Assembly: GCA_022703405.1 (NCBI GenBank)
Contig: JAKLDT010000001.1
Location: 1,523 to 65,522, forward strand
DNA length: 64,000 nucleotides
Direction: 5' to 3'
Origin: Bacteroidota bacterium
GTDB taxonomy: Bacteria > Bacteroidota > Bacteroidia > Bacteroidales > VadinHA17
The number at the start of each line of letters is the position of its first letter. The stretch's first letter is position 1. Below the pieces are notes generated by a model. The model saw only the letters and a program-made list of their open reading frames with translations. It searched no databases and had not been told where the DNA came from. This document shows, piece after piece, positions 1 through 15,382 of this stretch. Both the position numbers and the translations under genes were made by a program.

Positions 1-3000
1 AGCGATTCTTTCTGGAAAAATATATTCATATCCATTCTGCTGATCATGATATTGTTGAAGATATTCATTTGAGATTTGAGCGGTTATAAATTGCTTTTCA
101 TCCAATGTTGCAGTTATATTCAGAGTAGAAAGGCTAAGACTAATCAATTGACGGACTGTTTGTTCGAAATAGGGATCATTACGAAGTACTCCGCTGTTGA
201 GAAGAACCTTATCATCTATTACTGATTTTATAGAGTTTAAAGTATCACATATCTCAGTTTCACGCTTGGAAATTAAACCGCGTAATACTACTCGCTTATG
301 CACTCGGGCTAACTTTTCATCATTATTGTACACCTGCTTCAATTTAGCGTTCCGACGGTTTATTTCCCGGATTTTTTCCATTATGCCATCCATATATTTT
401 ATGCGGTCTTTAGCCTCTTGTGCAGTGGATGGTTCAATATTTTTATCCTTAAAGTATTCTCGAAACATTTTTGCTAAGGATATGAATTCCTCATCTGTTT
501 GATCAAAGTTCAAGTTGAATTCCCTCCAGGTACGCTGCCAGCATTCAGTATAATCATCACTTAACATCCGTAATTCTTCCTCTTTAACTTTTACAAATGA
601 GAAAGTAATTGTAGCCATTGCTTCATTGATAAGACCATTTATAGTATCCTGATTTTGCATTGAATTTTTAAGGTTCACTGTATCAAGCCTATGAGAAACC
701 TCACTATATAGCTCATTGACCTTAGAAATCGCAAATTTTGAAAATTGGTCTTTCAATTCCTGATCACCAAATGTCCGTACGACATTAGCCAGACTCTTAG
801 CCTGCTCAAGTGATTTCTTAATAGTCAGAAGGGTTTCCCGATCATTAATTTCATTAATCTGTTGAGAGAATTCCTCAGCATTGGTGCAACTATAGCCAAA
901 GAGGACTTCCTTAATATCCTTCATTTGTTCTATAATTTCATCGTTACTTTCAAATAAACCGGAGTAAGTTTCTATATTCTCCTCTCCTACCTCTTTTTTT
1001 AATTCTCTTAAATAGGCCTCATTTGTAGCGTCAAAAGCATCTTTAATATCTGCAAAATCAACAATGTAACCATATTTGAAATTATTGAAGGGCCTATTAA
1101 CTCGGGTGAGAGCTTGTAAAAGATTGTGATCTTTGATTTTTCGACCAAGATAGAGCTTCTTCAATCTTGGAGAATCAAAGCCTGTCAACAACATAATATT
1201 GACAATCAATATGTCAACTGATGCTTTCTTCTTGAAATCTTCAATATATCCTTTCCTGGTCTCCTTATCATCTTCATCATGCAAAATGAGTGCGCATTTC
1301 AGATGATGTTGATTCTGTTTATCATTGAAAATTTTGAACATAGTCCTTGCCTGCAGATTTGAGTCACAGACTATCATACCAGCAATTGAATTATCCCCAA
1401 AGTAAATCCGGCTTCTAATCAGATCTGCTGTAATATAGTCAAGTAAGGCTTCCACATAACGAGGATCAGCTATTATACGATCTTTCTTGATGTCACTACG
1501 CTTCAGCTGAACCTCCTCAAGTACCTTTTCAATCTCCATGCGATAATTGCTTTCTATATCCTCTCGCATTAACTTTAAGGTGTACCCGTCAGCAATTGAT
1601 TGGTTGTAGTAATATGTGTCAATGTAATCGCCAAATATCTTGCAGGAGTTCTTTTCATCCCCAATGAGAGGTGTCCCAGTCAAGGCAATTTTTATGGCAT
1701 TCGGATCAGAGTCAAACAAGTTAGCGAGGAAGCAACCATCCGGTTTATATCCTCTATGTGCTTCGTCAAGAAAATAAATGCGCTGAATGTTAATTGCGTA
1801 TTCATCCATTCTTACTTTGTGCTGATCTTCCTTAAACTTTTGGATGTTCACCACAGTTATTTCTGATTTTCCCTGCTGATTAAAAATGGAAGTTTGAGAA
1901 CGAAATTGCTCCATCAATTCAATTCTGTCGTTAACAGTATTTACTGTCAACCCTCGTTCTTCAAATTCTATCTTAGCCTGAGTAAGTAAGTCAATCCTAT
2001 CAACAATAAAATAGAACTTGGGAACAATAGGATTAGGAAGAGAGGCATAATAATCAGTCAAATACTTGACATTATAAAAGGCGAGAGCAGTTTTTCCACT
2101 TCCCTGAGTATGCCATATTATGCCAGATCTTACACCTTCTGACAACTTCCTTTTTAGTGCCAGCGTTGCGAACATTTGCTGATAACGCATTATATGCTTT
2201 TGAAGTACCTGAATATCGACCCCATCAATTTCTGTTTTTGTATCGACATAAGCAATCGCATAACGAATAATAAAAAGGAATCTCTCCTTACTAAACAGTG
2301 ACGTTATTAACCGATTTGTAGGAGTATTTACATTCTTGTTTGTCTGGTATTCGGGAGTATGTTTTATGACTGTTGCATTATTATCTGTTAGAATATAATA
2401 CTCAGTGGGGTCTTCTAATGTTAGATAGTGATAATCCTTGTAAAAATCAGCTTTGCTTTCCTCATACTTAGCTACTTTTTCTCTGAAACAATTAAATATA
2501 GCTTTGTCTTTAGCATTGGTACAATAGAAGGCCCCTTGAATCGGAACAATTGATTCGTTGTCATACTCCATATTGTTTGAAAAAAGCAGAACCTGTGACA
2601 GGTTTAGAAATCGACGAAATTTTCGATTTTTAAACCTCACATTGATTCTATCTCTTTCTGCCAGGATCCCTTCTTTATTATTAGGTTTCTTAACCTCTAT
2701 GAATGCAAGTGGCAAACCATTAATATACAGTGATATGTCAGGACGGAACTCATCTTCTCCATTTTTACAGGTAAATTCAGTTGTACATACAAAATCATTA
2801 TTTTCTACATTCTCAAAGTCAATGAGCTTAATGCCTGAATTCGTTGATAATATGCTGTAAAATTCTCTTCCTAAATCATCATTATCCAGAATAATCTTGA
2901 GTTTATCAATGAACTGATCTATTTCAATTGCTCTGAGTGAAGGGTTGAATTGATGAAGTTTGCTCTTCAGAACACTGATATTTATATTCGTGTCTGTATC

Positions 3001-3102
3001 ACAAATATCCTTAAGCTCTTTTTCTGATACATACTTATAACCCAATCGGCATAAATGAGTTAATGCTGGAATTTTGACACGTGAGTTCTCGTTAAAAGCC
3101 AT
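1..3102 (-). CDS. hsdR: Type I restriction enzyme R subunit (HsdR); the C-terminal end runs off the left window edge
   Basis: Minus-strand frame is open from the ATG at 3102 to position 1 (1034 codons, no stop, so it is absent from the supplied track). My translation shows PD-(D/E)xK nuclease motif PDISLYINGLPLAFIEVKK, Walker A TQGSGKT, DEAH box, LTGTP, LLTGFDSP and QALTRVNR, in the order typical of HsdR helicase-nucleases. Confidence 0.9.
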   Translation of the reverse strand, partial: MAFNENSRVKIPALTHLCRLGYKYVSEKELKDICDTDTNINISVLKSKLHQFNPSLRAIEIDQFIDKLKIILDNDDLGREFYSILSTNSGIKLIDFENVENNDFVCTTEFTCKNGEDEFRPDISLYINGLPLAFIEVKKPNNKEGILAERDRINVRFKNRKFRRFLNLSQVLLFSNNMEYDNESIVPIQGAFYCTNAKDKAIFNCFREKVAKYEESKADFYKDYHYLTLEDPTEYYILTDNNATVIKHTPEYQTNKNVNTPTNRLITSLFSKERFLFIIRYAIAYVDTKTEIDGVDIQVLQKHIMRYQQMFATLALKRKLSEGVRSGIIWHTQGSGKTALAFYNVKYLTDYYASLPNPIVPKFYFIVDRIDLLTQAKIEFEERGLTVNTVNDRIELMEQFRSQTSIFNQQGKSEITVVNIQKFKEDQHKVRMDEYAINIQRIYFLDEAHRGYKPDGCFLANLFDSDPNAIKIALTGTPLIGDEKNSCKIFGDYIDTYYYNQSIADGYTLKLMREDIESNYRMEIEKVLEEVQLKRSDIKKDRIIADPRYVEALLDYITADLIRSRIYFGDNSIAGMIVCDSNLQARTMFKIFNDKQNQHHLKCALILHDEDDKETRKGYIEDFKKKASVDILIVNIMLLTGFDSPRLKKLYLGRKIKDHNLLQALTRVNRPFNNFKYGYIVDFADIKDAFDATNEAYLRELKKEVGEENIETYSGLFESNDEIIEQMKDIKEVLFGYSCTNAEEFSQQINEINDRETLLTIKKSLEQAKSLANVVRTFGDQELKDQFSKFAISKVNELYSEVSHRLDTVNLKNSMQNQDTINGLINEAMATITFSFVKVKEEELRMLSDDYTECWQRTWREFNLNFDQTDEEFISLAKMFREYFKDKNIEPSTAQEAKDRIKYMDGIMEKIREINRRNAKLKQVYNNDEKLARVHKRVVLRGLISKRETEICDTLNSIKSVIDDKVLLNSGVLRNDPYFEQTVRQLISLSLSTLNITATLDEKQFITAQISNEYLQQYHDQQNGYEYIFPERIA

Positions 3103-3844: not shown

Positions 3845-4315
3845 TTACAAAAGCCCGTTATCAGCAAAGCTGTAATAGTCATTTTCTGGTGAAAGAATGA
3901 GATGATCCAGTAACTGAATATCCATTATATTGCCAGCCTCTTTGAGCTTCTGAGTAATCCTTGAATCAGATTCACTCGGATTGAGATTGCCTGAGGGATG
4001 GTTATGACATACAATCAATCCTGATGCATTGCTTTTAAGGGCTGCCTGAAGAATGATCCTGACATCAGTTACAGTTCCTGATATCCCACCTTTTGAGATA
4101 GGTAAAAGACCAAGGACAGCATTAGAACGATTCATTAACAGTATCTTGAACTCTTCATAGTATTCAAGTGTACTGTCATTCCAGGACTCTCTGAAGATGT
4201 CATTGGCATCCTTTGAACAGGTTATCTTTTTACGCTGCGATGGAGGAACATTTGATTTGTAAGACAATACTACCTCGGCAACATTAAACATTGATAGTTG
4301 AATAGCGTTTTTCAT
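3845..4315 (-). CDS. radC: RadC-like JAB/MPN domain protein
   Basis: VCHNHPSGNLNPSESD matches the HxHPSG...SxxD JAB metalloprotease signature of RadC-family proteins. A terminator-like hairpin GCCATC-CGGA-GATGGC follows at about 3822-3837. Confidence 0.9.
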   Translation of the reverse strand: MKNAIQLSMFNVAEVVLSYKSNVPPSQRKKITCSKDANDIFRESWNDSTLEYYEEFKILLMNRSNAVLGLLPISKGGISGTVTDVRIILQAALKSNASGLIVCHNHPSGNLNPSESDSRITQKLKEAGNIMDIQLLDHLILSPENDYYSFADNGLL

Positions 4316-5730: not shown

Positions 5731-6507
5731 CTAAAGCCAATCATCTTTTATACTTTTTGCATCAATTGTTTCATTTTCTATAAATTGATCATACTTCTCC
5801 GGCATTTCTACTTTTTCCCTGGAAATGGTAAAAACTTTTTCATCCTGCATATTTGGATCATCATCAATTTCAGATTGAAATTCTTCTTCTAACAGATATT
5901 GTGACTTTGAAATTTCACTTATTACTTTCCCTAATCTTTCTCTTGTTTCTGGATCTATTCCTTGACCTGTATCCATCATCTGGATTTGATCTTGCTCAGA
6001 ATCTTCATTCTTATTAGCAGATAATGGATTTAGCTCAGATATTTCTTTATTGTTATTATTTGTTGTATCCTTTATATCCTCAATATCCTTTATATCATTT
6101 CCTTTATATATAGCACCATTCTTAAATGCGTTTGGATTGCTGTCGCAATCGATTAAAAGATCATTTGATTTTTTACTCCATCTTTTTATTGCTGATTGTC
6201 TTGCAGATTCGGTTTTCTTCTTTCGAACCTCGAGTCTTCTTTCAATACTTTGTGAGCTAAAAAAGTCATTCTTGATAACGAATAGATCAAAATCATTTAC
6301 TATACTTTTAACTATGTCATCATCCGTCCGCAAATCAAATGCAATGTCATCATAGTCCGTTCGCATTGCGTTTGCATTATTATATAAATCCTCAACAATG
6401 GACCAGAATATTCCATATCCAGTCATTCCATACTTCTTAAGAAGTCTCTTTATCTTTTCATCAGTTCTTGCATTGTAGTCATGCGAAAAATAATACGTCT
6501 CTTTCAT
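5731..6507 (-). CDS. DUF4373-like (Lin1244/Lin1753-type, replisome-organiser-like) protein
   Basis: From the internal start MKETYYFSHDYNARTDEKIKRLLKKYGMTGYGIFWSIVEDLY, which resembles the N-terminal DUF4373 signature (YFxHDxNAxxDxK...GYGxYW). The track ORF extends to 6585, but that N-terminal extension looks non-native. Confidence 0.6.
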   Translation of the reverse strand: MKETYYFSHDYNARTDEKIKRLLKKYGMTGYGIFWSIVEDLYNNANAMRTDYDDIAFDLRTDDDIVKSIVNDFDLFVIKNDFFSSQSIERRLEVRKKKTESARQSAIKRWSKKSNDLLIDCDSNPNAFKNGAIYKGNDIKDIEDIKDTTNNNNKEISELNPLSANKNEDSEQDQIQMMDTGQGIDPETRERLGKVISEISKSQYLLEEEFQSEIDDDPNMQDEKVFTISREKVEMPEKYDQFIENETIDAKSIKDDWL

Positions 6508-6592
6508 ATTCCTGGCTTTTAAAGGCATCCATCCGGGATTATCAGGAACCTGACTTGCGGTCAGGCGTCCCGGATGGTGCCTCATATTGTTA

Positions 6593-6874
6593 TTATTCTG
6601 TCCTTAATCTTTTATATTTGAGAGTCGTTGCGTCCTGAATGGCAGCTTTAATATCAGATTCGAGATACAACATTCTTGTGCCAATTTTACTTCCCTTTAT
6701 TATGCCTTTTTTAGTATAGGTATTTAAAGTTGGCATACTGACCTTAAGAATTGTACATACCTCTTCTCGGGAGAGATACTTTAGATCAATATCCTCTTTC
6801 TTGAGGTTAAGGTCGATCAGCCGGTTTTCAATGCTGGTCAGCCTTAAGTTAATTTCTTCAAATGGATTTGACAT
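6593..6874 (-). CDS. Excisionase/MerR-type helix-turn-helix DNA-binding protein
   Basis: LSREEVCTILKVSMPTLNTYTKKGIIKGSKIGTRMLY is typical of HTH_17/excisionase-family proteins. It lies two genes from the integrase. Confidence 0.7.
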   Translation of the reverse strand: MSNPFEEINLRLTSIENRLIDLNLKKEDIDLKYLSREEVCTILKVSMPTLNTYTKKGIIKGSKIGTRMLYLESDIKAAIQDATTLKYKRLRTE

Positions 6875-6943: not shown

Positions 6944-7651
6944 CTATTTTTTAAATATATCATTCTCAATATTGAATTTTAGCTTCATTAGATCTTTTTC
7001 AGCACGGTCTTTTGCATCCCCGGAGAGTTCTTTTATGACTTTCTCAAATAGTTTTATTTTATTCTTATTCTTTAATTCTGAACTTTCAGCACCTATTCTA
7101 TCAATCAGATTAACATACCCCAGATAAATTATATATAGTTTGCCTTTACCTTTTTTAATAATCTCATTTCTATAAATAGACAATAAAGCAAGTTCAGCAT
7201 TTGTCTTTTGTCCTTTAAGGTAATTATTTAACCACAATAGATATCTACAATAGACTAAAGCTAAACTATAGAAAAGTCTTCTATCTGTTAAATAATCTGG
7301 CACAAAATCATTTAGCTTATAAAACCAATCATCCCAGTCATTTTCTTCTAATTCATCAATATTATTATTGTTTACAATAAAATGAATCCAGAACTTTCTA
7401 ATCAACCATATCTGCATACTGTTGAACTCTGGAACTGAATAATCTTCAAGCGGTTCGTCATCGTGTGAAAGTATTGGTAAGGGCAACTTATCCTCATCAA
7501 AAAGTAATGAATAGCCCTTGATTTCCCTTGCTAAGAGTTCTTTCTTTCCTCTACTATTTTGATACCTGACGTTAAAATCATCCTTTAATTTCTGAAGTCT
7601 TATGGCTTCATCTTTAGTCAAAATAATATCTTCAATGCTCATATCATACAA
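6944..7651 (-). CDS. Hypothetical protein, overlaps the integrase stop by 8 nt
   Basis: 235-aa ORF. Its start overlaps the end of the integrase gene (7644-7651), which suggests co-transcription. No recognisable motif. Confidence 0.55.
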   Translation of the reverse strand: MYDMSIEDIILTKDEAIRLQKLKDDFNVRYQNSRGKKELLAREIKGYSLLFDEDKLPLPILSHDDEPLEDYSVPEFNSMQIWLIRKFWIHFIVNNNNIDELEENDWDDWFYKLNDFVPDYLTDRRLFYSLALVYCRYLLWLNNYLKGQKTNAELALLSIYRNEIIKKGKGKLYIIYLGYVNLIDRIGAESSELKNKNKIKLFEKVIKELSGDAKDRAEKDLMKLKFNIENDIFKK

Positions 7652-8987
7652 CTTTTAATTTTGTTTTGAAATATGGATGATTAGCAAGTTTTACGGCAGT
7701 CTCTTCTTTACTTATCCGAACATATTTCAAGAATTCTTTTGGTGTCCGGTGTCCACTGATCTTCATAATGTCTACTATTGGAATTCCAGCGAGATACATA
7801 AGGGTGACTCCAGTGCGTCTTGCACAATGAGTTGATATCAAATCACATTTCTTTACATTTAATTTTTTAATCATCCCACCTTTGTTCTTTTCGGTATGAA
7901 TCAACTCAGTAATCCCTGCTTTGGCTCCGATCTTTTTAATTGCTTTATTAACCTTTTGTTCGAATGACTTGGGTAAGTTGTAATCATATCTTTGAAGAAT
8001 TACTTCTAATTCTGGTCGGATTGGGATGATACATTTTTCACCAGTCTTCTTTTGAATCAATTCAATGTACTTTGTTCCACTAATTTCTTTAATGTTTGAT
8101 TTATTCAGTTTTGAGTAATCAGAATATCGTTGAGCGGTATAGCAGCCTGCAAGGAATACATCACGTACTTCCTGGTAGTGCTTATTATCACTTAGATCCA
8201 ACTCATAAAGGTTCTTCAACTCTGACTCAGTTAAATAAATGTGTTCCACTTCCTCAGACAGGGTTTTAAAGGCCTTTCTTTCTATTTCCATATTGCTGTG
8301 CAGACCTTCTTCCCTGGCAGATCTCATTATGGTTTTAAAACTCTTTATGTGTTTTCCAATATAGTTGGATCCACATCCACGTCCATAAAAGAATTCAACA
8401 AATTCATTGTAGATATCAATTGATATATCATTCCAATTCAGTGGCTTATAAGGCCTTTGGGGATATACTTTGGCTCCCTTACGTGGTTTAATGCCTTCAT
8501 TCTCTATGCCCTGGAATGTATTGAAGGTCAACATAAACCCCCTTAGAACCCGTAGTGAGCCATAACTATATTTCTTTTTAGTGTTCCCGGAATTAGCAAG
8601 GCGTTTTCCACTTGTTGCCTCATCCACAAACCTTTTAATGTATTCGTTCAATGTTTCTATTGAAGCTGGCTCCCTATAGTAGAAATCATCAATTACACCT
8701 TTTAACCATTCAGCCGTTGGTGTGGTAGTCAGTTTAAAAGATTCTCTGAGGATAGCATCTTTAAGCTGTGAAAACTTGTCCTGTATATCTTTAGCCTGGT
8801 CCTGAGTTATTTCCTCAGTAAACAGGATATTGGGCTTAAGTCTTTGAGCCTTTTCATTCCAATATGATGGATAAAGTCTATAAGGAGTTAGGAGGCGGAT
8901 TTTGATGTCAGTACCATCCTGGAAGCAGACATAAACTGAAGCCAGCTTATTCACCTTTGATCGGACATAGAATCTTATGGTTGCCAT
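7644..8987 (-). CDS. Tyrosine site-specific integrase (Bacteroidetes type with N-terminal arm-binding domain)
   Basis: Catalytic-region motifs TAQRYSD, HCARRTGVT, SGHRTPKEFLKYV (R...HxxR...H...Y). The N-terminus MATIRFYVRSKVNKLASVYV is typical of the arm DNA-binding domain of this integrase class. Confidence 0.9.
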   Translation of the reverse strand: MATIRFYVRSKVNKLASVYVCFQDGTDIKIRLLTPYRLYPSYWNEKAQRLKPNILFTEEITQDQAKDIQDKFSQLKDAILRESFKLTTTPTAEWLKGVIDDFYYREPASIETLNEYIKRFVDEATSGKRLANSGNTKKKYSYGSLRVLRGFMLTFNTFQGIENEGIKPRKGAKVYPQRPYKPLNWNDISIDIYNEFVEFFYGRGCGSNYIGKHIKSFKTIMRSAREEGLHSNMEIERKAFKTLSEEVEHIYLTESELKNLYELDLSDNKHYQEVRDVFLAGCYTAQRYSDYSKLNKSNIKEISGTKYIELIQKKTGEKCIIPIRPELEVILQRYDYNLPKSFEQKVNKAIKKIGAKAGITELIHTEKNKGGMIKKLNVKKCDLISTHCARRTGVTLMYLAGIPIVDIMKISGHRTPKEFLKYVRISKEETAVKLANHPYFKTKLKVV

Positions 8988-9018
8988 AGGCTATAATAGT
9001 TTTCACTAAAGATACAAC

Positions 9019-9041
9019 TTGTGTCTATAGTTGTGTCTATA
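9019..9041. repeat. Tandem TTGTGTCTATA x2 (candidate integrase arm-type sites)
   Basis: TTGTGTCTATA at 9019-9029 and 9031-9041. This is 30-50 bp beyond the integrase start and about 130 bp from direct repeat copy A. Confidence 0.4.
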
Positions 9042-9164
9042 ATTGTTTAATATATTTTTCTTTGATTTAACTTCCTTTTATGAAAACAAGGTTCATAAAA
9101 CAGAATACCAGACCATTATGGACTTATAATTAATTTCGGAAATTAAAGCGAATTAAATATTTAG

Positions 9165-9385
9165 CGTCCCGTCCGCACCGCGAATAAAAACATGAAAGCC
9201 ATCTGTCAGGATGGCTTTAGTGTTTTAAACCGTCGGCGTTGATCAGTAAAATGGCGCGCTGGCGTCATTTCATGTTTTTATTCGCAGGGTAACCAGTGGA
9301 GGAAAGGGTCCGGCGCAGCCATTTCCGGCTCCACCTTTATGATAGAAACTTTAAAGCCTCATTAAATGGGGCTTTTCGCTTTTTA
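9165..9385 (+). ncRNA. Candidate structured non-coding element at the island junction (identity unknown)
   Basis: Contains an 18-bp perfect inverted repeat (9180-9197 / 9268-9285), which encloses the hairpin AAAGCCATC-TGTCAG-GATGGCTTT (9195-9218). A bulged hairpin GTGGA-GGAAA...TTTCC-GGC-TCCAC lies at 9296-9334. A terminator-like AAAGCC...GGCTTT plus T-run lies at 9353-9385. No ORF. Confidence 0.25.
9167..9191 (+). repeat. att-like direct repeat, copy A (TCCCGTCCGCACCGCGAATAAAAAC)
   Basis: 24/25 identical to 11407-11431. The GC-rich half CCCGT-CCGCACC-G has the layout of a tRNA T-stem 3' strand, a 7-nt acceptor strand and a discriminator base. Confidence 0.6.
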
Positions 9386-9394
9386 TTAGGAATG

Positions 9395-9417
9395 ATTTGT
9401 CCGACATTTGTCCGACA
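9395..9417. repeat. Tandem ATTTGTCCGAC x2
   Basis: Perfect 11-bp tandem duplication. It resembles the TTGTnnnnA pattern of the 9019-9041 repeats, so these may be arm-type or accessory-protein sites. Confidence 0.35.
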
Positions 9418-9668
9418 TTGCCAAAATCACAAAAGCTTTTTCGATTTAATTTATAGAGATACTTCATACTTTTGCCTTGGTTTCTACTTTGTCATATTCT
9501 GAATTATTGCATTGATATTCAATCAAAGACAAGTGTAAATACTTACTTTAACAAATTAATCGAAACTCAAAAATGGAAAGAAAGGTAAAAAAATACACTC
9601 TATTCATACTCATTTTTTTATTACATTCTAAGGAATGAGTATTATATCACAAGAACAAAGCGTCTCTC

Positions 9669-9830
9669 TGGAAATTATTTTCCAATCGTATCCTCATACT
9701 GGAAAATAATTGATCATTTGGTGCAAACAATGCATTATATTGGAAATTATTTTCTAATTACAGCCCCTTGGTGGAAAATATTATCTAATTTTGTGCTTTT
9801 ACAAGATTATTATGGAAAATATTTTACCTA
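9669..9830 (+). promoter_or_regulatory. Phased array of five 18-bp repeats (TGGAAAwTATTwTCyAAT) ending on the fic start codon
   Basis: Copies start at 9669, 9700, 9741, 9772 and 9813, with spacings of 31, 41, 31 and 41 bp. R1 and R3 are 17/18 identical. R2, R4 and R5 share TGGAAAATA. R5 includes the ATG at 9812. Confidence 0.5.
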
Positions 9831-11293
9831 TACATCTTCAGGAGATAATTTTCAGTTCATCAGATCAAAAAATCTCAAAGCAGATTTCAAAACTTGTGAA
9901 GACTGGGAAGATCAGGAAAATTGCTCAACGAATATATTCTTCGAACTTTATTGACCAGCCAGATGCAATAATTCGGAGAAATTTATTCATTGTGCTTGGC
10001 AGGCTTCATCCAGGCGCAATCCTAAGTCATCGTTCAGCTTTTGAATATGAACCAACCAATGAAGGCCATATTTTCTTAACATATTCATATACAAAAAAGG
10101 TAAATCTGGCCGGGGTCATTCTAAGGTTTCTTGAGGGACATAAAGCCTTACCAGGCGATAATCAAATCTCTGGTGGATTATATGCTTCCCAGAGAGCAAG
10201 AGCATTTTTAGAAAATTTGCAACTTTCAAAAAATGTAAGTGGAAGTTCAAAATGTCTGCCAACAGCTACAATAGAAAGCAAATTAGAACAGATTATCAGG
10301 GTAAATGGAGAGGAAGAACTAAATAAAATAAGAGACAGAGCAAGGGAGATTGCTCCTGAACTCAATATGGAAAGAGAATTTGAAAGATTAAATAAGATAA
10401 TTAGTGCTCTTTTAACTACACAGACACCAAAGATATTATCATCTCCTATTGCAGTTGCCAGGGCATTTGGATTTCCTTATGATCCAGCCAGAATAAAACT
10501 TTTTGAGGACCTCTTCAGAGCATTAAAGACAAGTGAGTTCAAAAGCAGACCAGATAAAAACACAACTTCCGAATCCTTCAGGAATTTTGCATTCTTTGAA
10601 AGTTATTTTTCAAATTATATTGAAGGAACTGTGTTTGAAGTAGATGAGGCGAAGAACATTGTAGACTCAAATAAACCGTTACCAGCCAGAAATGAAGATA
10701 GCCATGATGTGCTGGGAACGTACAGGTTAGTCTCGAATAAGGCTGAAATGTCAGTAACACCGGCTAAAGCTGAAGATATGTTGCACATTATTACATATCG
10801 GCATAGAATTTTACTGGAAGCCAGACCAGAAAAGAATCCTGGTGTGCTTAAGGATAGAAACAATTTTGCAGGTTCGACATCATTTGTGGATTTTAATCTG
10901 GTTCGTGGCACATTATTACAATCATTTAACTTTTTTCAAGCACTTGATCACCCCTTTGCTAAGGCTTCTTTCATGATGTTCATTTTAAGTGAAGTTCATC
11001 CATTCCTTGATGGAAATGGTCGTATTGCCAGAATTATGATGAATGCAGAATTAGTAAAAGACGGGCAATCAAAGATTATTATACCAACTGTCTATCGTGA
11101 TGATTATTTTGTTACACTTAGAAAACTGACAAGACAAGGCGATCCGAAACCTTATATAGCAATGTTACAACGAGTACATGAATTTAGTGAAAACATTTAT
11201 GGAGACAATTATAAAGTTATGTTGGACTACATCAACCAATGTAATGCATTCTACGAACACACTGAAGCCAGATTAAAGGTTGCTAAAAGGTAG
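9812..11293 (+). CDS. Fic-domain protein (probable AMPylase) with a long N-terminal extension
   Basis: Canonical Fic motif HPFLDGNGRIARIM. An upstream SNYIEG matches the (S/T)xxxE(G/N) inhibitory-helix motif. The ATG at 9812 (MENILPI) is preferred over the TTG at 9791 used by the track. Confidence 0.9.
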   Translation: MENILPIHLQEIIFSSSDQKISKQISKLVKTGKIRKIAQRIYSSNFIDQPDAIIRRNLFIVLGRLHPGAILSHRSAFEYEPTNEGHIFLTYSYTKKVNLAGVILRFLEGHKALPGDNQISGGLYASQRARAFLENLQLSKNVSGSSKCLPTATIESKLEQIIRVNGEEELNKIRDRAREIAPELNMEREFERLNKIISALLTTQTPKILSSPIAVARAFGFPYDPARIKLFEDLFRALKTSEFKSRPDKNTTSESFRNFAFFESYFSNYIEGTVFEVDEAKNIVDSNKPLPARNEDSHDVLGTYRLVSNKAEMSVTPAKAEDMLHIITYRHRILLEARPEKNPGVLKDRNNFAGSTSFVDFNLVRGTLLQSFNFFQALDHPFAKASFMMFILSEVHPFLDGNGRIARIMMNAELVKDGQSKIIIPTVYRDDYFVTLRKLTRQGDPKPYIAMLQRVHEFSENIYGDNYKVMLDYINQCNAFYEHTEARLKVAKR

Positions 11294-11406
11294 GAGCATC
11301 TTTATTGAAAATGTAAGGCTAATCAACCTGGGCATCAATTCATATCTCCTTTTCTCTACAAGTTTCTTGTCTTGAATTATGAATAATTAATACAAATGCC
11401 AGCAGT

Positions 11407-11431
11407 TCCCGTCCGCACCGCGAACAAAAAC
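11407..11431 (+). repeat. att-like direct repeat, copy B (TCCCGTCCGCACCGCGAACAAAAAC)
   Basis: Second copy. It coincides with the transition from AT-rich accessory DNA to core genes (GH29 promoter region). Confidence 0.6.
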
Positions 11432-11499
11432 CACTCAGAAGGAAAAAAATAATCATTTTTGCTTTTTTAGTCCTACCTTTATTAAAATACTCATCCGCT

Positions 11500-12564
11500 A
11501 TGCAAAAATTCAAAATAAAACCTCTGCAGGTTTTCTGTTGCATACTGATTTTAATAACAGCGTGCAGATCAGAGAAAAAAAACATTGAATATACTCCTGC
11601 AACAGAAAAGACAGAAGCTTTAGCCTCCTGGGAAGACCTCCGCTTCGGGGCCTTCGTCCATTTCAACGACAATACCTTCTTTGGAAAGGAGATATGCAAA
11701 AACACCGATCCTGCCTTGTTTAATCCTGCTGATCTGAACTTCGATGATATGATGAAAACCTTTAATGAGGCTGGAATCCGTTATGCAGTTCTTACAACCC
11801 GTCACACTTCCGGTTTCTGCCTGTGGGACAGCAAGGTAAGCTCATTCGATGTTGCATCCGGTCCATTCAGAAAAGATGTTGTGAAACTTTTCACAGAAGC
11901 ATGCAGAAAATACAACATCAAGCCTTGCTTTTACTATTGCTTATGGGGCAAAAAAGACTGGAACCCGGCAGACTGGAACCCTGTTATCAGGGAGGAACTA
12001 AGAAATACTTCCCCGAAGGAAATTATTAAAACCCAGCTGAGTGAACTAGCTGATAATTATGGTGATATATGCGAGTTTTGGCTCGACATGTATTGCTGGT
12101 GCGACACAACGCTTTCGACTCAGGAAATTTATGATCTTATTAAAAGCAAAAACAAAAATACAATCGTTCATTTCAATCAGCATGTGCAGGACGGTTCAGA
12201 AATAAAATACTTCCCCACCGATATTCTTAACGGAGAAGAACGGCTTCCTCCTTCTTCAGGACATATTTCTGAAAGAACTGTTGGCGGAAAAACATACTAT
12301 CTGCCTTTTGAATACGAGATCACTTCGCAGAGCTGTGATTCAATTTCTCTTGGAAACGGACTCATGCCGGGTTCAGTATGGTTCACCTACCCGGGAAGTC
12401 ATTTCTATCCGGGCGACAGCCTTTACAGCTATATAAGGCAGAGCTTTGAAAGAGGTGGCAGAAATATCCTCCTGTCAACTGCGCCTGACAAAACAGGTTC
12501 GTACAGGAATGCTGACAGGGATAGCCTGATAAAACTCGGAAAGATGCTTTACAGAGACAACTAA
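11500..12564 (+). CDS. GH29-like alpha-L-fucosidase, exported
   Basis: N-terminal signal/lipoprotein-like sequence (LILITACRSE). RFGAFVHFN and TTRHTSGFCLWDS resemble GH29 catalytic-domain motifs. Confidence 0.6.
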   Translation: MQKFKIKPLQVFCCILILITACRSEKKNIEYTPATEKTEALASWEDLRFGAFVHFNDNTFFGKEICKNTDPALFNPADLNFDDMMKTFNEAGIRYAVLTTRHTSGFCLWDSKVSSFDVASGPFRKDVVKLFTEACRKYNIKPCFYYCLWGKKDWNPADWNPVIREELRNTSPKEIIKTQLSELADNYGDICEFWLDMYCWCDTTLSTQEIYDLIKSKNKNTIVHFNQHVQDGSEIKYFPTDILNGEERLPPSSGHISERTVGGKTYYLPFEYEITSQSCDSISLGNGLMPGSVWFTYPGSHFYPGDSLYSYIRQSFERGGRNILLSTAPDKTGSYRNADRDSLIKLGKMLYRDN

Positions 12565-12670
12565 GGCGCTTTTGAGACAGCAATAAAAATTATCCTTTAT
12601 CGGTTTAAGTCTGGGATACAGTTTCTGAAAAAGACTGAAAATTTTTTCTTCCACCTTCGAATGAGTGATT

Positions 12671-13619: not shown

Positions 13620-14720
13620 TTATTTGGTATCCTTACTTCCTCTTGCTTCATTATCAGCCCTTTCCTGCCTTTTAATGAGAATATCAGACAAGACCTGAAC
13701 CATTTTTCTCATTTCAGGATCATTACTTTGTGACATCCTTAACCAGGCTCCTCCCCCCTCATAATAGGCTACAAGTCTTTCGTCCCACACCCTGTTTTCA
13801 TCAAAGTACCTTATATATTCATAGTATTTTTCCCTTCCTTCCGGTTTTGCAACATTATTGTCAAACTCCAGTTCCATACCCATCCTGTGCAGTTTTCCAA
13901 ATTTGCAGGCATCATCAAGTCTCTGGGCAGATATCTCTTTGTTAAAGAAATAGTTAGGCTGCTGATAAGCGCAATCGAATCCGAGTTCATCCCATTTGTC
14001 CGATCTTTCTGCTTTCCAGTAAGGTATCCAGTAGAGTTTCATGGATTTCTGAACAAGGTATTTCTTTACTTCAGGAATTATTGCAAAGTCCTTTCCTGCA
14101 GCTTCATGAACCCAGTAGAAGCCATCGAGTTCTATATGCCGGTATCCCTTATTGTTCCATGTTTCAAGAACTCTGTCAACAAACCAGCATGCGGCAGCTA
14201 TCTGATCTTCAGCTTTATTGAAATCCAGTTTCTTTCCGTTTATTTCTCCCCAGTCTGTAAATCCAGAAACCGGACAGGGAATACTGATCACAACTTTCCT
14301 TGGCCTGACAGGCTTTTTCCCCTGTCGGGCAAGGCTATCCAAAACTGCCTCAAGTGCATCCGGGCCCTTTCCCTTTCCGAAATAGCGACCCAGAAGCCAC
14401 TCCCATTCAGTCTTTGAGGCTGTTGCATAACCGAATCCCGGGTCCCATTCCAGCTTCCGGTTTTTGTCAAAGATCTCCAGAAAAAGGAAGCCATCAAAAA
14501 GCCAGTTAAAACTGTTTGCGTCTGATTTATAAATATATGGCTTCAGTTCATTCTTATTCCAGTCAGGTCTGTGTGTCGATCCGTGATAAATAAGAACGAG
14601 ATCAGAGATGACAGAATTATTTTTAACCTGAGGTTGCGCCGAACAGATAAACAACTCTGAATTAAGAATAAGGAGAACTGTTACAATTAATAAAGAAACG
14701 AATGAGTTATTGTATTTCAT
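13620..14720 (-). CDS. Exported protein, DUF4855-like (putative glycosidase-like TIM-barrel fold)
   Basis: Signal peptide. Recollection-level resemblance to the DUF4855 family (FDGFLFLEI, YWVHEAA, YWIPYW). Not verifiable here. Confidence 0.4.
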   Translation of the reverse strand: MKYNNSFVSLLIVTVLLILNSELFICSAQPQVKNNSVISDLVLIYHGSTHRPDWNKNELKPYIYKSDANSFNWLFDGFLFLEIFDKNRKLEWDPGFGYATASKTEWEWLLGRYFGKGKGPDALEAVLDSLARQGKKPVRPRKVVISIPCPVSGFTDWGEINGKKLDFNKAEDQIAAACWFVDRVLETWNNKGYRHIELDGFYWVHEAAGKDFAIIPEVKKYLVQKSMKLYWIPYWKAERSDKWDELGFDCAYQQPNYFFNKEISAQRLDDACKFGKLHRMGMELEFDNNVAKPEGREKYYEYIRYFDENRVWDERLVAYYEGGGAWLRMSQSNDPEMRKMVQVLSDILIKRQERADNEARGSKDTK

Positions 14721-14881
14721 GTGAGTACACTAATTGATAGGTATCAAAGATATTTTAAAAACCAATCAGTTTGCCTTGAATATTAATAAAACCTGTATAT
14801 AAGCAGGATTCCGTTTATTGCATATTAAGTTTTATTAGATTTGAACATATCTTCTATCTCGTAATTATAAAATTGGAAATA

Positions 14882-15382
14882 ATGAAAATATCATTAGTAT
14901 TTGTAACCTCTGTTCTCATACTGTTCTCAGTACCGGAATATTCTTCAGCACAGAGTAAGGCATCGGCCCCTGATCAGGCTGAACTTTTGAAGCAGTTTAA
15001 AGGCTCATGGACCTGTGAGATAGGGAAAGATACTATAGCTCAATGGGATATGATACCATGGGGAACAGGCTTCGAAGCTAAACTGAAATATGTGTATAAA
15101 GGAAAAATTATTAAGGAAGGCAAAGGTTTATATGGTTATGATTCTGCACTGGACAAAATAGTTGAGGCAGGAATCACAAAAGGAATGGACATCGGCGTGT
15201 ATGTAATGTGGTTTATTACTGACAGAAAATGGATCCTTATTCCATACAACGATCTGAAAAATCCCGAAAAAGCCACTTTTAAAATGGAGGGTGAATTCAG
15301 ATCTTCTGATAAGCTTATTGAGATTAACTATACTAACGGCAAACCTGTCAAAACGAAAAGCTGGACTGCATCAAAACAATAA
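14882..15382 (+). CDS. Hypothetical secreted protein
   Basis: Signal peptide MKISLVFVTSVLILFSVPEYSSAQ. ATG at 14882 is preferred over the TTG at 14873. Confidence 0.5.
   Translation: MKISLVFVTSVLILFSVPEYSSAQSKASAPDQAELLKQFKGSWTCEIGKDTIAQWDMIPWGTGFEAKLKYVYKGKIIKEGKGLYGYDSALDKIVEAGITKGMDIGVYVMWFITDRKWILIPYNDLKNPEKATFKMEGEFRSSDKLIEINYTNGKPVKTKSWTASKQ

What the first reader, a model, noticed from the sequence alone, without database searches (positions are those of the whole stretch)
9167..11431. Tandem island architecture: an integrase-less Fic module bracketed by 25-bp repeats next to the integrase end of the larger island
TCCCGTCCGCACCGCGAA(T/C)AAAAAC occurs at 9167-9191 and at 11407-11431, in direct orientation and 24/25 identical.

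Copy A lies about 180 bp from the integrase start. Copy B sits exactly where the AT-rich accessory DNA gives way to core genes.

The 2.2-kb interval encodes only a Fic protein plus repeats. It looks like a satellite or remnant that uses the same attachment site as its integrase-bearing neighbour, and possibly the same integrase.

The GC-rich part of the repeat, CCCGT-CCGCACC-G, has the layout of a tRNA T-stem 3' strand, acceptor 3' strand and discriminator base. No tRNA body precedes either copy. If this reading is right, the intact tRNA lies left of the window and a third repeat copy should be there too.
Basis: partly seen in the sequence, partly recalled or inferred. Interest (0 to 1): 0.6.

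Follow-up and report, generated by a model that had tools for sequence, protein, structure and literature searches.

The report
Stacked genomic islands at tRNA-Asp site
The two 25-bp repeats are integration scars copied from the end of a tRNA-Asp gene. They bracket an integrase-less Fic gene block that sits next to an integrase-bearing defence island, which is an ordinary, well-known way for bacterial genomic islands to pile up at one tRNA site.

Summary
TCCCGTCCGCACCGCGAA(T/C)AAAAAC occurs only at 9167-9191 and 11407-11431, where chance predicts no copy.

Its first 14 nt are the 3' end of tRNA-Asp(GTC): T-stem 3' strand, acceptor 3' strand and discriminator G. Forty-eight metagenome loci and four ARAGORN-called genes end this way.

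Copy A lies 179 nt from the start of an intact tyrosine integrase. Integrases 77%, 63% and 33% identical to it have the same layout elsewhere.

DNA right of copy A is the native tRNA-Asp trailer. A relative at about 95% nucleotide identity (L120) joins this trailer directly to the fucosidase flank and lacks about 9341-11424, the Fic block. Other Bacteroidales carry the same Fic block just downstream of an intact tRNA-Asp.

The best reading is tandem accretion. An older integrase-less Fic block (CIME-like remnant) sits beside a later island carrying an integrase and type I restriction-modification genes.

- The intact tRNA and a third repeat copy could not be checked. The source contig ends 1.5 kb left of the window.
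- Nothing supports the Fic block being an active satellite of the neighbouring integrase. The arms share no sites and no excision junctions were found.

This is a new member of a known kind, of low to moderate interest.

The parts
1..3102 (-). hsdR (type I restriction subunit R), cargo of the integrase island. Its stop codon lies 32 nt beyond the window start, and hsdM follows on the source contig.
   Evidence: Pfam HSDR_N, ResIII, SWI2_SNF2 and T1R_D3. L001 gene table and sequence.
3845..4315 (-). RadC-like JAB protein, island cargo.
   Evidence: Pfam RadC, 1.7e-37.
5731..6585 (-). Protein with a Lin1244_N domain (replication-organiser-like), part of the island backbone.
   Evidence: Pfam PF14297, 3.8e-13.
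6593..6874 (-). Small HTH_17 protein, a candidate excisionase or regulator of the island.
   Evidence: Pfam HTH_17, 1e-09. A small HTH protein sits at the same position after the integrase in L172 and L173 (HTH_17) and in L170 (HTH_39). The role is inferred.
7644..8987 (-). Tyrosine integrase (447 aa), intact.
   Evidence: Pfam Phage_integrase and Phage_int_SAM_5. R287, H387-x-x-R390, H413 and Y422 are invariant among 8 homologues. Homologues 89-55% identical have the same length.
9019..9041 (+). Tandem TTGTGTCTATA x2 between the integrase start and copy A, putative arm-type or operator sites.
   Evidence: Tandem repeats of the same kind lie upstream of int in L170 (TTGTACAA x2) and L172 (ATGGACACAAC x2). 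Function is inferred.
9167..9191 (+). Copy A: the last 14 nt of tRNA-Asp(GTC) plus 11 nt of trailer. It is the attR-type junction of the integrase island and the left bracket of the Fic block.
9178..9292 (+). Structured tRNA-Asp trailer. It has an 18-bp outer stem (9180-9197 with 9268-9285), an inner terminator-like hairpin at 9195-9218 followed by a T-run, and a second hairpin at 9249-9270.
   Evidence: Fold z-score -4.7. Of 35 pairs, 7 show compensatory changes across the window, L120 and L162. Homologous trailers follow tRNA-Asp in L120 and L162.
9331..9345 (+). Possible eroded internal copy (A') of the tRNA-Asp 3' end, TTTCCGGCTCCACC. It lies where homology with L120 ends.
   Evidence: The homologous position carries TCCTGTCCGCACTG (12/14) in L162 and a perfect 14-mer in L172, after the invariant motif GAAAGGGT. 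In the window itself the match is not significant, so this is a lead only.
9395..9416 (+). Tandem ATTTGTCCGAC x2, downstream of a terminator-like hairpin at 9353-9375.
   Evidence: Tandem repeats of a similar kind (GCCACAAAAT) lie at the same relative place in L162 and L166. Function unknown.
9669..9823 (+). Five phased TGGAAAWTATT repeats spaced 31/41/31/41 nt. The last overlaps the Fic start codon. Operator-like array.
   Evidence: Positions -71, -40 and +1 are conserved in 7 Fic loci.
9812..11293 (+). Fic protein (493 aa): a class II Fic AMP-transferase core with an AbiEi-like N-terminal region.
   Evidence: Pfam Fic. HPFLDGNGRIAR at residue 396 and inhibitory SNYIEG at 267. Best PDB matches are FICD. 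PADLOC SoFic 8e-18 and AbiEi 2e-5 at residues 15-116.
11407..11431 (+). Copy B: the right bracket, and the boundary with core DNA.
   Evidence: Homology of the Fic block to L169 stops at 11404, and collinearity with L120 starts at 11426.
11500..12564 (+). Alpha-L-fucosidase, the first core gene on the right flank.
   Evidence: Pfam Alpha_L_fucos. 96% aa identity and collinear in L120.

Best explanation
The left 11.4 kb of the window is a tandem array of horizontally acquired DNA stacked at the 3' end of a tRNA-Asp(GTC) gene. This site is an integration hot spot in Bacteroidales.

The 25-bp repeats are att-site scars, made of 14 nt of tRNA 3' end plus 11 nt of trailer.

Module 1 runs from beyond the window start to 9166. 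It is an integrative defence island carrying a tyrosine integrase, an HTH_17 protein, a Lin1244_N protein, RadC and a type I restriction-modification system. Its integrase-proximal end abuts copy A.

Module 2 (9192-11406) has no recombinase. It consists of the structured tRNA-Asp trailer followed by a self-contained Fic gene block. That block is an AbiEi-like N-terminus fused to a class II Fic core, behind a phased operator-like repeat array. It ends at copy B.

The most likely history (inferred) has three steps:
1. The Fic block was already joined to the tRNA-Asp 3' end, with copy B as its distal scar.
2. It kept no integrase of its own, making it a CIME-like remnant.
3. The integrase island then recombined with the regenerated tRNA 3' end. 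This pushed the tRNA body leftwards and left copy A as a hybrid junction between the two modules.

Shown: the tRNA origin of the repeat, the integrase geometry, absence of the Fic block from the closest relative, and tRNA-Asp-to-Fic adjacency in other genomes. Inferred: the order of events, the existence of the intact tRNA and third copy at the far left, and any present-day mobility.
For: -: two copies, none expected by chance.
- the 18-mer is the 3' end of tRNA-Asp(GTC) in 48 loci. About 11 further low-GC loci carry it without a tRNA body.
- at least four occupied/empty pairs share the same trailer (L047/L021, L061-L067/L035-L082, L090/L052, L118/L081-L119). Integration at this site is therefore recurrent.
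- ARAGORN calls tRNA-Asp(gtc) genes ending in the same 14-mer.
- the integrase is intact.
- integrases 77% (L170/L171), 63% (L172) and 33% (L118) identical lie 50-650 nt from a body-less tRNA-Asp 3' end, with the same relative strand arrangement.
- L120 is 92-96% identical over 8 kb. It joins tRNA T-loop and 3' end, trailer and fucosidase flank, and lacks window ~9341-11424.
- L162 and L165-L167 carry an intact tRNA-Asp 520-650 nt upstream of an 85-88% identical Fic. L162 also has the same trailer.
- homology of the Fic block in L169 ends 2-3 nt before copy B.
- the published definition of CIMEs and of accretion matches this layout.
Against: - The far-left junction (intact tRNA plus third copy) is unseen.
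- L120's contig begins inside the tRNA. It therefore does not prove the integrase island is absent there.
- In L162 and L165-L167 no att copy follows Fic. Fic can thus be plain chromosomal DNA next to tRNA-Asp rather than an element.
- Copy B is perfect while the internal A' is nearly erased. The trailer is only ~81% identical to L120, against ~96% for the flank. Simple serial accretion does not predict either fact.
- No integrase or transfer-gene pseudogene remnants were identified in the Fic block.
Confidence: 0.62

Rival explanations
1. Single composite arrival. The integrase island and the Fic block entered this genome together as one accreted unit. They had been assembled in an earlier host, for example an L162-like genome where tRNA-Asp, trailer, A' and Fic are contiguous. 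Excision there used the tRNA core and a site downstream of Fic. Copy A is then an internal att site and copy B the true attR of the composite.
For: - Copies A and B are both pristine and 24/25 identical, including 11 nt beyond the tRNA, while the internal A' is eroded.
- The trailer is much more diverged from L120 (~81%) than the flank is (~96%), as if it were imported.
- The order trailer, A', Fic matches L162.
- Transfer of CIME-ICE composites is documented.
Against: No donor-type junction has been seen and no second genome carries the same composite. L049 is the same element from another sample. L120 also has a trailer at this locus, so the trailer need not be imported.
Confidence: 0.2
2. 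Active integrase-less satellite. The Fic block is a currently mobilisable element that is excised and integrated in trans by the neighbouring integrase, or another tRNA-Asp-specific one.
For: - The block is flanked by near-perfect direct att copies next to a cognate-site integrase.
- The Fic block has sharp homology borders and occurs in several genomic contexts. Many homologues lie on 1.7-2.5-kb contigs.
- There are tandem 11-mers near its left end.
Against: - The arms next to A and B show no significant similarity. The integrase-side TTGTGTCTATA repeats are absent from the block.
- The block encodes no excisionase.
- No circular or empty junctions occur among 115 metagenome loci.
- Fic homologues elsewhere lack flanking att copies.
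- The first 150 nt of the block are ordinary tRNA trailer.
Confidence: 0.08
3. The Fic block is not an element at all. It is native DNA downstream of tRNA-Asp, as in L162 and L165-L167. Copy B and the junction with the fucosidase region arose from a rearrangement, such as recombination between att copies at two tRNA-Asp loci, or loss of an element that once lay between Fic and the fucosidase.
For: tRNA-Asp-to-Fic adjacency recurs with core genes on both sides and no distal repeat. Several genomes have multiple tRNA-Asp genes.
Against: The closest relative lacks Fic at this locus while keeping both flanks. GC content is lower than in the core. Fic-block homology ends exactly at copy B.
Confidence: 0.1

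Closest known systems
CIME-ICE/IME tandem accretion (ICESt1/ICESt3-CIME of Streptococcus thermophilus; review PMC5704250)
   Same: An integrase-less segment bounded by direct att copies lies in tandem with an integrase-bearing element at the 3' end of the same target gene. The shared middle att site is a hybrid junction.
   Different: The host phylum is Bacteroidota and the target is tRNA-Asp. The neighbour shows no conjugation or relaxase genes in the part visible. No decayed integrase or transfer genes are seen in the Fic block. Cis-mobilisation is untested.
Bacteroides NBU1/NBU2-type integrative mobilisable elements targeting tRNA 3' ends (tRNA-Leu, tRNA-Ser; from general knowledge)
   Same: A tyrosine integrase sits at the element end. 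A short core identical to the 3' end of a tRNA gene is duplicated on integration.
   Different: The tRNA target differs. No mobilisation gene or oriT was identified here. The cargo is a type I restriction-modification system. Integrase relatives also serve prophages (L170).
Composite island with IME_Sag2603_tRNAlys of Streptococcus agalactiae (described in PMC5704250)
   Same: Two elements lie in tandem at a tRNA 3' end, with a chimeric internal att site.
   Different: There both modules encode integrases. Here only one does.
SoFic / class II Fic AMP-transferases (PADLOC SoFic; FICD structures)
   Same: The protein has the canonical HxFx(D/E)GNGRxxR motif and an N-terminal inhibitory (S/T)xxxE(G/N) helix. 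It lies in a defence-island neighbourhood.
   Different: It scores far below the NCBIfam SoFic equivalog cut-off (23 bits against 550). It has an extra ~245-aa N-terminal region with weak AbiEi similarity. A defence role is untested.

Membership tests
tRNA-targeting integrative genomic island (tyrosine integrase) | Encodes an intact tyrosine recombinase with the catalytic R...HxxR...H...Y residues | tested here: met
   Pfam Phage_integrase above the cut-off. R287, H387, R390, H413 and Y422 are invariant in the alignment.
tRNA-targeting integrative genomic island (tyrosine integrase) | The element end carries a direct copy of the 3' end of the target tRNA gene | tested here: met
   Copy A equals the last 14 nt of tRNA-Asp(GTC). 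Integrase relatives have the same geometry.
tRNA-targeting integrative genomic island (tyrosine integrase) | An intact tRNA gene with a matching core lies at the opposite end | not testable with these tools
   The contig ends 1521 nt left of the window, inside hsdM. The exact HsdR is on no other record.
tRNA-targeting integrative genomic island (tyrosine integrase) | Empty site in a related genome | tested here: inconclusive
   L120's contig begins inside the tRNA T-loop. Absence of the integrase island there is likely but unproven. Occupied/empty pairs exist for other elements at this tRNA.
CIME (cis-mobilisable element) | Bounded by attL and attR in direct orientation | tested here: met
   Copies A and B are 24/25 identical and in direct orientation.
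CIME (cis-mobilisable element) | Lacks integration and transfer genes | tested here: met
   The only gene in 9192-11406 is Fic.
CIME (cis-mobilisable element) | Derived by decay of an ICE or IME | tested here: inconclusive
   No recombinase remnants were recognised. The Fic block occurs elsewhere as a plain chromosomal gene next to tRNA-Asp. The first 150 nt are tRNA trailer.
CIME (cis-mobilisable element) | Excised or transferred together with, or by, the adjacent element | not testable with these tools
   This needs reads or experiments. No alternative junctions occur among 115 assembled loci, and the arms share no similarity.
Fic/DOC family, class II | Active-site motif HxFx(D/E)GNGRxxR | tested here: met
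   HPFLDGNGRIAR at residue 396. Pfam Fic scores 43 bits against a cut-off of 24.
Fic/DOC family, class II | Inhibitory (S/T)xxxE(G/N) motif on the same chain, N-terminal to the core | tested here: met
   SNYIEG at residue 267. The protein aligns to FICD from residue ~247.
AbiE toxin-antitoxin system | AbiEi antitoxin paired with an AbiEii nucleotidyltransferase toxin | tested here: not met
   There is only a weak AbiEi-like N-terminal match (E 2e-5). No AbiEii gene lies in the block.
Phage satellite (P4/PICI-like) | Own integrase plus replication or packaging-hijack genes | tested here: not met
   The Fic block has none of these.

The most novel reading that the evidence does not exclude
The Fic block, together with the structured tRNA-Asp trailer whose stems are kept by compensatory changes, could be a recombinase-less cassette. 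It would recurrently occupy the tRNA-Asp 3' site across Bacteroidales by borrowing the tRNA-Asp-specific integrases of passing islands and prophages. The trailer would serve as its recombination or processing module, and the AbiEi-like/Fic fusion would autoregulate through the phased TGGAAAWTATT array.
Probability: 0.1. Interest if true: 0.5.

Novelty: new member of a known kind. Interest (0 to 1): 0.25.

Why it matters
The finding identifies tRNA-Asp(GTC) as a recurrent integration hot spot in Rikenellaceae-like Bacteroidales. One integrase family, 55-100% identical, serves both defence islands and prophages there.

It also gives a clean example of island stacking (accretion), which explains why assemblies break at this locus. 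This is useful for annotating metagenome-assembled genomes and for bioprospecting integrase and att-site pairs.

It does not change how genomic islands are understood. The side observations are more original than the architecture itself: the covarying tRNA trailer structure, and the conserved phased repeat array upstream of an AbiEi-like/Fic fusion.

Tried and rejected
- Chance repeat: rejected.
- Generic dispersed repeat: rejected. Outside tRNA-Asp genes and att scars, the 18-mer hits are GC-rich chance matches (51 loci). The full 25-mer occurs only in this element. The two viral-contig hits were chance matches in GC-rich coding DNA.
- Known RNA family in 8900-11600: none. Only chance-level Rfam hits appeared.
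- Extending the contig leftwards: failed. The window is the reverse of Ga0116241_10000689, which ends in hsdM. The exact HsdR is on no other record.
- HsdR homologues as a route to the left end: these lie in unrelated elements. One is a CTnDOT-like ICE (L161). Another is an island with a 35%-identical integrase and no tRNA-Asp core (L173).
- A decayed tRNA body next to either copy, or at 9192-9460: local alignments were no better than shuffles.
- Shared arm-type sites between the integrase arm and the Fic-block arms: none significant.
- More distant fucosidase loci (L121 onward) for an empty site: synteny with tRNA-Asp is not conserved.
- Fic block as a member of AbiE or of the SoFic equivalog: not met.
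Full report
**Observation.** The 25-mer TCCCGTCCGCACCGCGAA(T/C)AAAAAC is present at 9167-9191 and 11407-11431 on the + strand, 24/25 identical. No other copy occurs in the 64-kb window even with three mismatches, and 100 dinucleotide-preserving shuffles gave none. A 447-aa ORF at 7644-8987 (- strand) is a tyrosine integrase (Pfam Phage_integrase and SAM-like domains). It starts 179 nt from copy A. The catalytic Arg/His-x-x-Arg/His/Tyr residues are invariant in an alignment with seven homologues. The only gene between the repeats is a Fic protein (9812-11293). ARAGORN finds no tRNA, and Rfam finds no family, anywhere in the window.

**What the repeat is.** I scanned public metagenome contigs for the first 18 nt and obtained 115 loci.
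- In 48 loci the 18-mer is preceded by ...CCTGTCACG...GGTCGCGGGTTCGAG. It is therefore the 3' end of tRNA-Asp(GTC): T-stem CCCGT, acceptor strand CCGCACC, discriminator G.
- Two more loci are cut at contig edges.
- Fifty-one are chance matches in GC-rich DNA.
- Fourteen low-GC loci carry the 18-mer without a tRNA body. One of these, L049, is this same element in another sample, and three look like chance matches.

ARAGORN independently calls tRNA-Asp(gtc) genes ending in the same 14-mer in L162 and L165-L167. Several body-less copies are followed by exactly the trailer that follows an intact tRNA-Asp in another contig (L047/L021, L061-L067/L035-L082, L090/L052, L118/L081-L119). These are occupied and empty versions of the same site. 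The site is a recurrent integration target, not a generic dispersed repeat. The full 25-mer occurs only in this element.

**The integrase island ends at copy A.** Homologues of the integrase were retrieved.
- The 77%-identical one (L170/L171) sits at the edge of a prophage carrying Prim-Pol, terminase and tape-measure genes. ACCCGTCCGCACCG lies 167 nt upstream of its start on the opposite strand.
- The 63%-identical one (L172) has two perfect 14-mers about 580-650 nt upstream.
- A 33%-identical one (L118) lies about 50 nt from a body-less copy.

In all of them, as in the window, the integrase lies next to the body-less (distal) tRNA copy. Tandem short repeats lie between the integrase start and the core (window 9019-9041). 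The visible part of the island carries an HTH_17 protein, a Lin1244_N protein, RadC and a type I restriction-modification system.

**What lies right of copy A.** The window is the reverse complement of JGI contig Ga0116241_10000689. A search with the flanking fucosidase found a MAG contig, L120. It is annotated as an uncultured Rikenellaceae bacterium, is collinear with the window and is 92-96% identical over about 8 kb.

L120 begins inside the tRNA-Asp T-loop (GGTTCGAG plus the 14-mer). It continues through a ~190-nt trailer homologous to window 9181-9340. It then runs straight into AAAAAACCACTCAGAAGG and the fucosidase gene. Relative to this close relative, window ~9341-11424 is therefore an insertion or deletion difference. 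This segment is the Fic gene, its upstream region and most of copy B. The sequence immediately right of copy A is ordinary tRNA-Asp trailer.

The trailer is strongly structured (z-score -4.7). Its stems are kept by compensatory changes in the window, L120 and L162 (7 of 35 pairs). It contains a terminator-like hairpin.

**The Fic block elsewhere.** Fic homologues are abundant in Bacteroidota, and 84-89% identical ones were examined in context.
- L162: an intact tRNA-Asp is followed by the same trailer, then a 12/14 copy of the tRNA end (A'), then Fic.
- L165-L167: an intact tRNA-Asp lies about 650 nt upstream of Fic.
- L164: a body-less tRNA-Asp end lies 5.4 kb upstream, with toxin-antitoxin and Fic genes between.
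- L163, L168, L169: other contexts.

DNA homology to the window is confined to about 9634-11404. In L169 it stops 2-3 nt before copy B. None of these loci has an att copy after Fic.

**The Fic protein.** It has the canonical HPFLDGNGRIAR motif and an upstream SNYIEG inhibitory motif, which makes it class II. Its best structural relatives are FICD. It also has a weak AbiEi-like N-terminal match.

**Interpretation.** The layout matches published tandem accretion. An integrase-less segment that keeps attL and attR (a CIME) sits next to an element that integrated later into the same target-gene end (PMC5704250). The states tRNA-Asp, trailer, Fic (L162) and tRNA-Asp, trailer, fucosidase (L120) bracket what is seen here. 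I therefore favour a resident integrase-less Fic block, with the integrase island arriving later.

Three facts do not fit the simplest serial model:
- Copy B is pristine while the internal A' is almost erased.
- The trailer is ~81% identical to L120, against ~96% for the flank.
- Other genomes have no distal copy after Fic.

These facts keep two alternatives alive. One is arrival of the island and Fic block as a single composite. The other is that Fic is native DNA brought here by a rearrangement.

The active-satellite idea has no positive support. There is no arm similarity, no excisionase in the block, and no alternative junctions in assemblies.

**Limits.** The intact tRNA and third copy predicted to lie left of the window could not be examined. 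The contig ends in hsdM 1521 nt beyond the window, and the exact HsdR is on no other record. Sibling restriction-modification cargo rides on unrelated elements. L120 starts inside the tRNA, so it proves absence of the Fic block but not absence of the integrase island.

**Verdict.** The tandem architecture is well supported, and the mobility claims are not. This is a new example of a known phenomenon, with low to moderate interest (0.25).

Noticed in passing
window 9178-9292; L120 17-160; L162 5476-5626: The tRNA-Asp trailer folds into a long-range stem enclosing a terminator-like hairpin and a second hairpin (z-score -4.7). Seven of 35 pairs show compensatory double changes among only three sequences. 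The outer stem reaches into the tRNA's own 3' end. No Rfam family matches.
   Followed up: partly
window 9669-9823; the same array in L162, L163, L164, L166, L168, L169: A phased array of TGGAAAWTATT repeats lies upstream of Fic, at -176/-145/-104/-71/-40/+1 with spacings of 31, 33 or 41 nt. The last repeat overlaps the start codon. Positions -71, -40 and +1 are conserved in all seven loci, and the window lacks the -104 unit. Together with the AbiEi-like N-terminus of Fic (PADLOC E 2e-5), this suggests an autoregulatory operator.
   Followed up: partly
L172 9349-9362 and 9411-9424 (- strand): Two perfect copies of the tRNA-Asp 3' 14-mer lie only 48 nt apart, beside a 63%-identical integrase. 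The 48 nt contain the motif GGATGAAAGGGT, which is also invariant in the trailers of the window, L120 and L162.
   Followed up: partly
window 9166-9330 compared with 11426-12548, against L120: The tRNA-proximal trailer is only ~81% identical to the close relative. The adjacent core flank is ~96% identical. This points to a separate history for the trailer, such as replacement by element-borne DNA or fast evolution of the structure.
   Followed up: no
protein list: Many 80-89% identical Fic homologues lie on contigs of only 1.7-2.5 kb, about the size of the A-to-B interval. Assemblies seem to break routinely around this gene block.
   Followed up: partly
L161 and L173: The type I restriction subunit HsdR, 84-88% identical to the window's, rides on quite different elements. 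One is a CTnDOT-like conjugative element with TraJ, TraM, TraG and a relaxase. The other is an island with a 35%-identical integrase plus GmrSD and other defence genes. The restriction-modification cargo appears to be exchanged between element backbones.
   Followed up: partly
L038 344, 782, 1125: Three copies of ...AGCATTCGAG plus the tRNA-Asp 3' 14-mer lie 438 and 343 nt apart on a 1.9-kb contig, with no canonical tRNA body. This may be an array of att scars or pseudo-tRNA repeats.
   Followed up: no
window 12549-12661 and 14622-14968, against L120 1330-2158 and 4119-6271: The close relative carries about 0.8 kb and 2.1 kb of extra DNA at two points in the otherwise collinear core region right of copy B.
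   Followed up: no
L010, L019, L057, L070, L074, L075, L104: Many Bacteroidales contigs carry two or three tandem tRNA-Asp genes about 100-200 nt apart. This offers several equivalent att sites and helps explain contig breaks at this locus.
   Followed up: no
L164 1122-5643: A small cluster sits between a body-less tRNA-Asp end and the Fic homologue. It contains a second Fic (514 aa), AbiEii, AbiEi and a SoFic-like Fic. It looks like a defence/toxin-antitoxin islet at the same hot spot.
   Followed up: no
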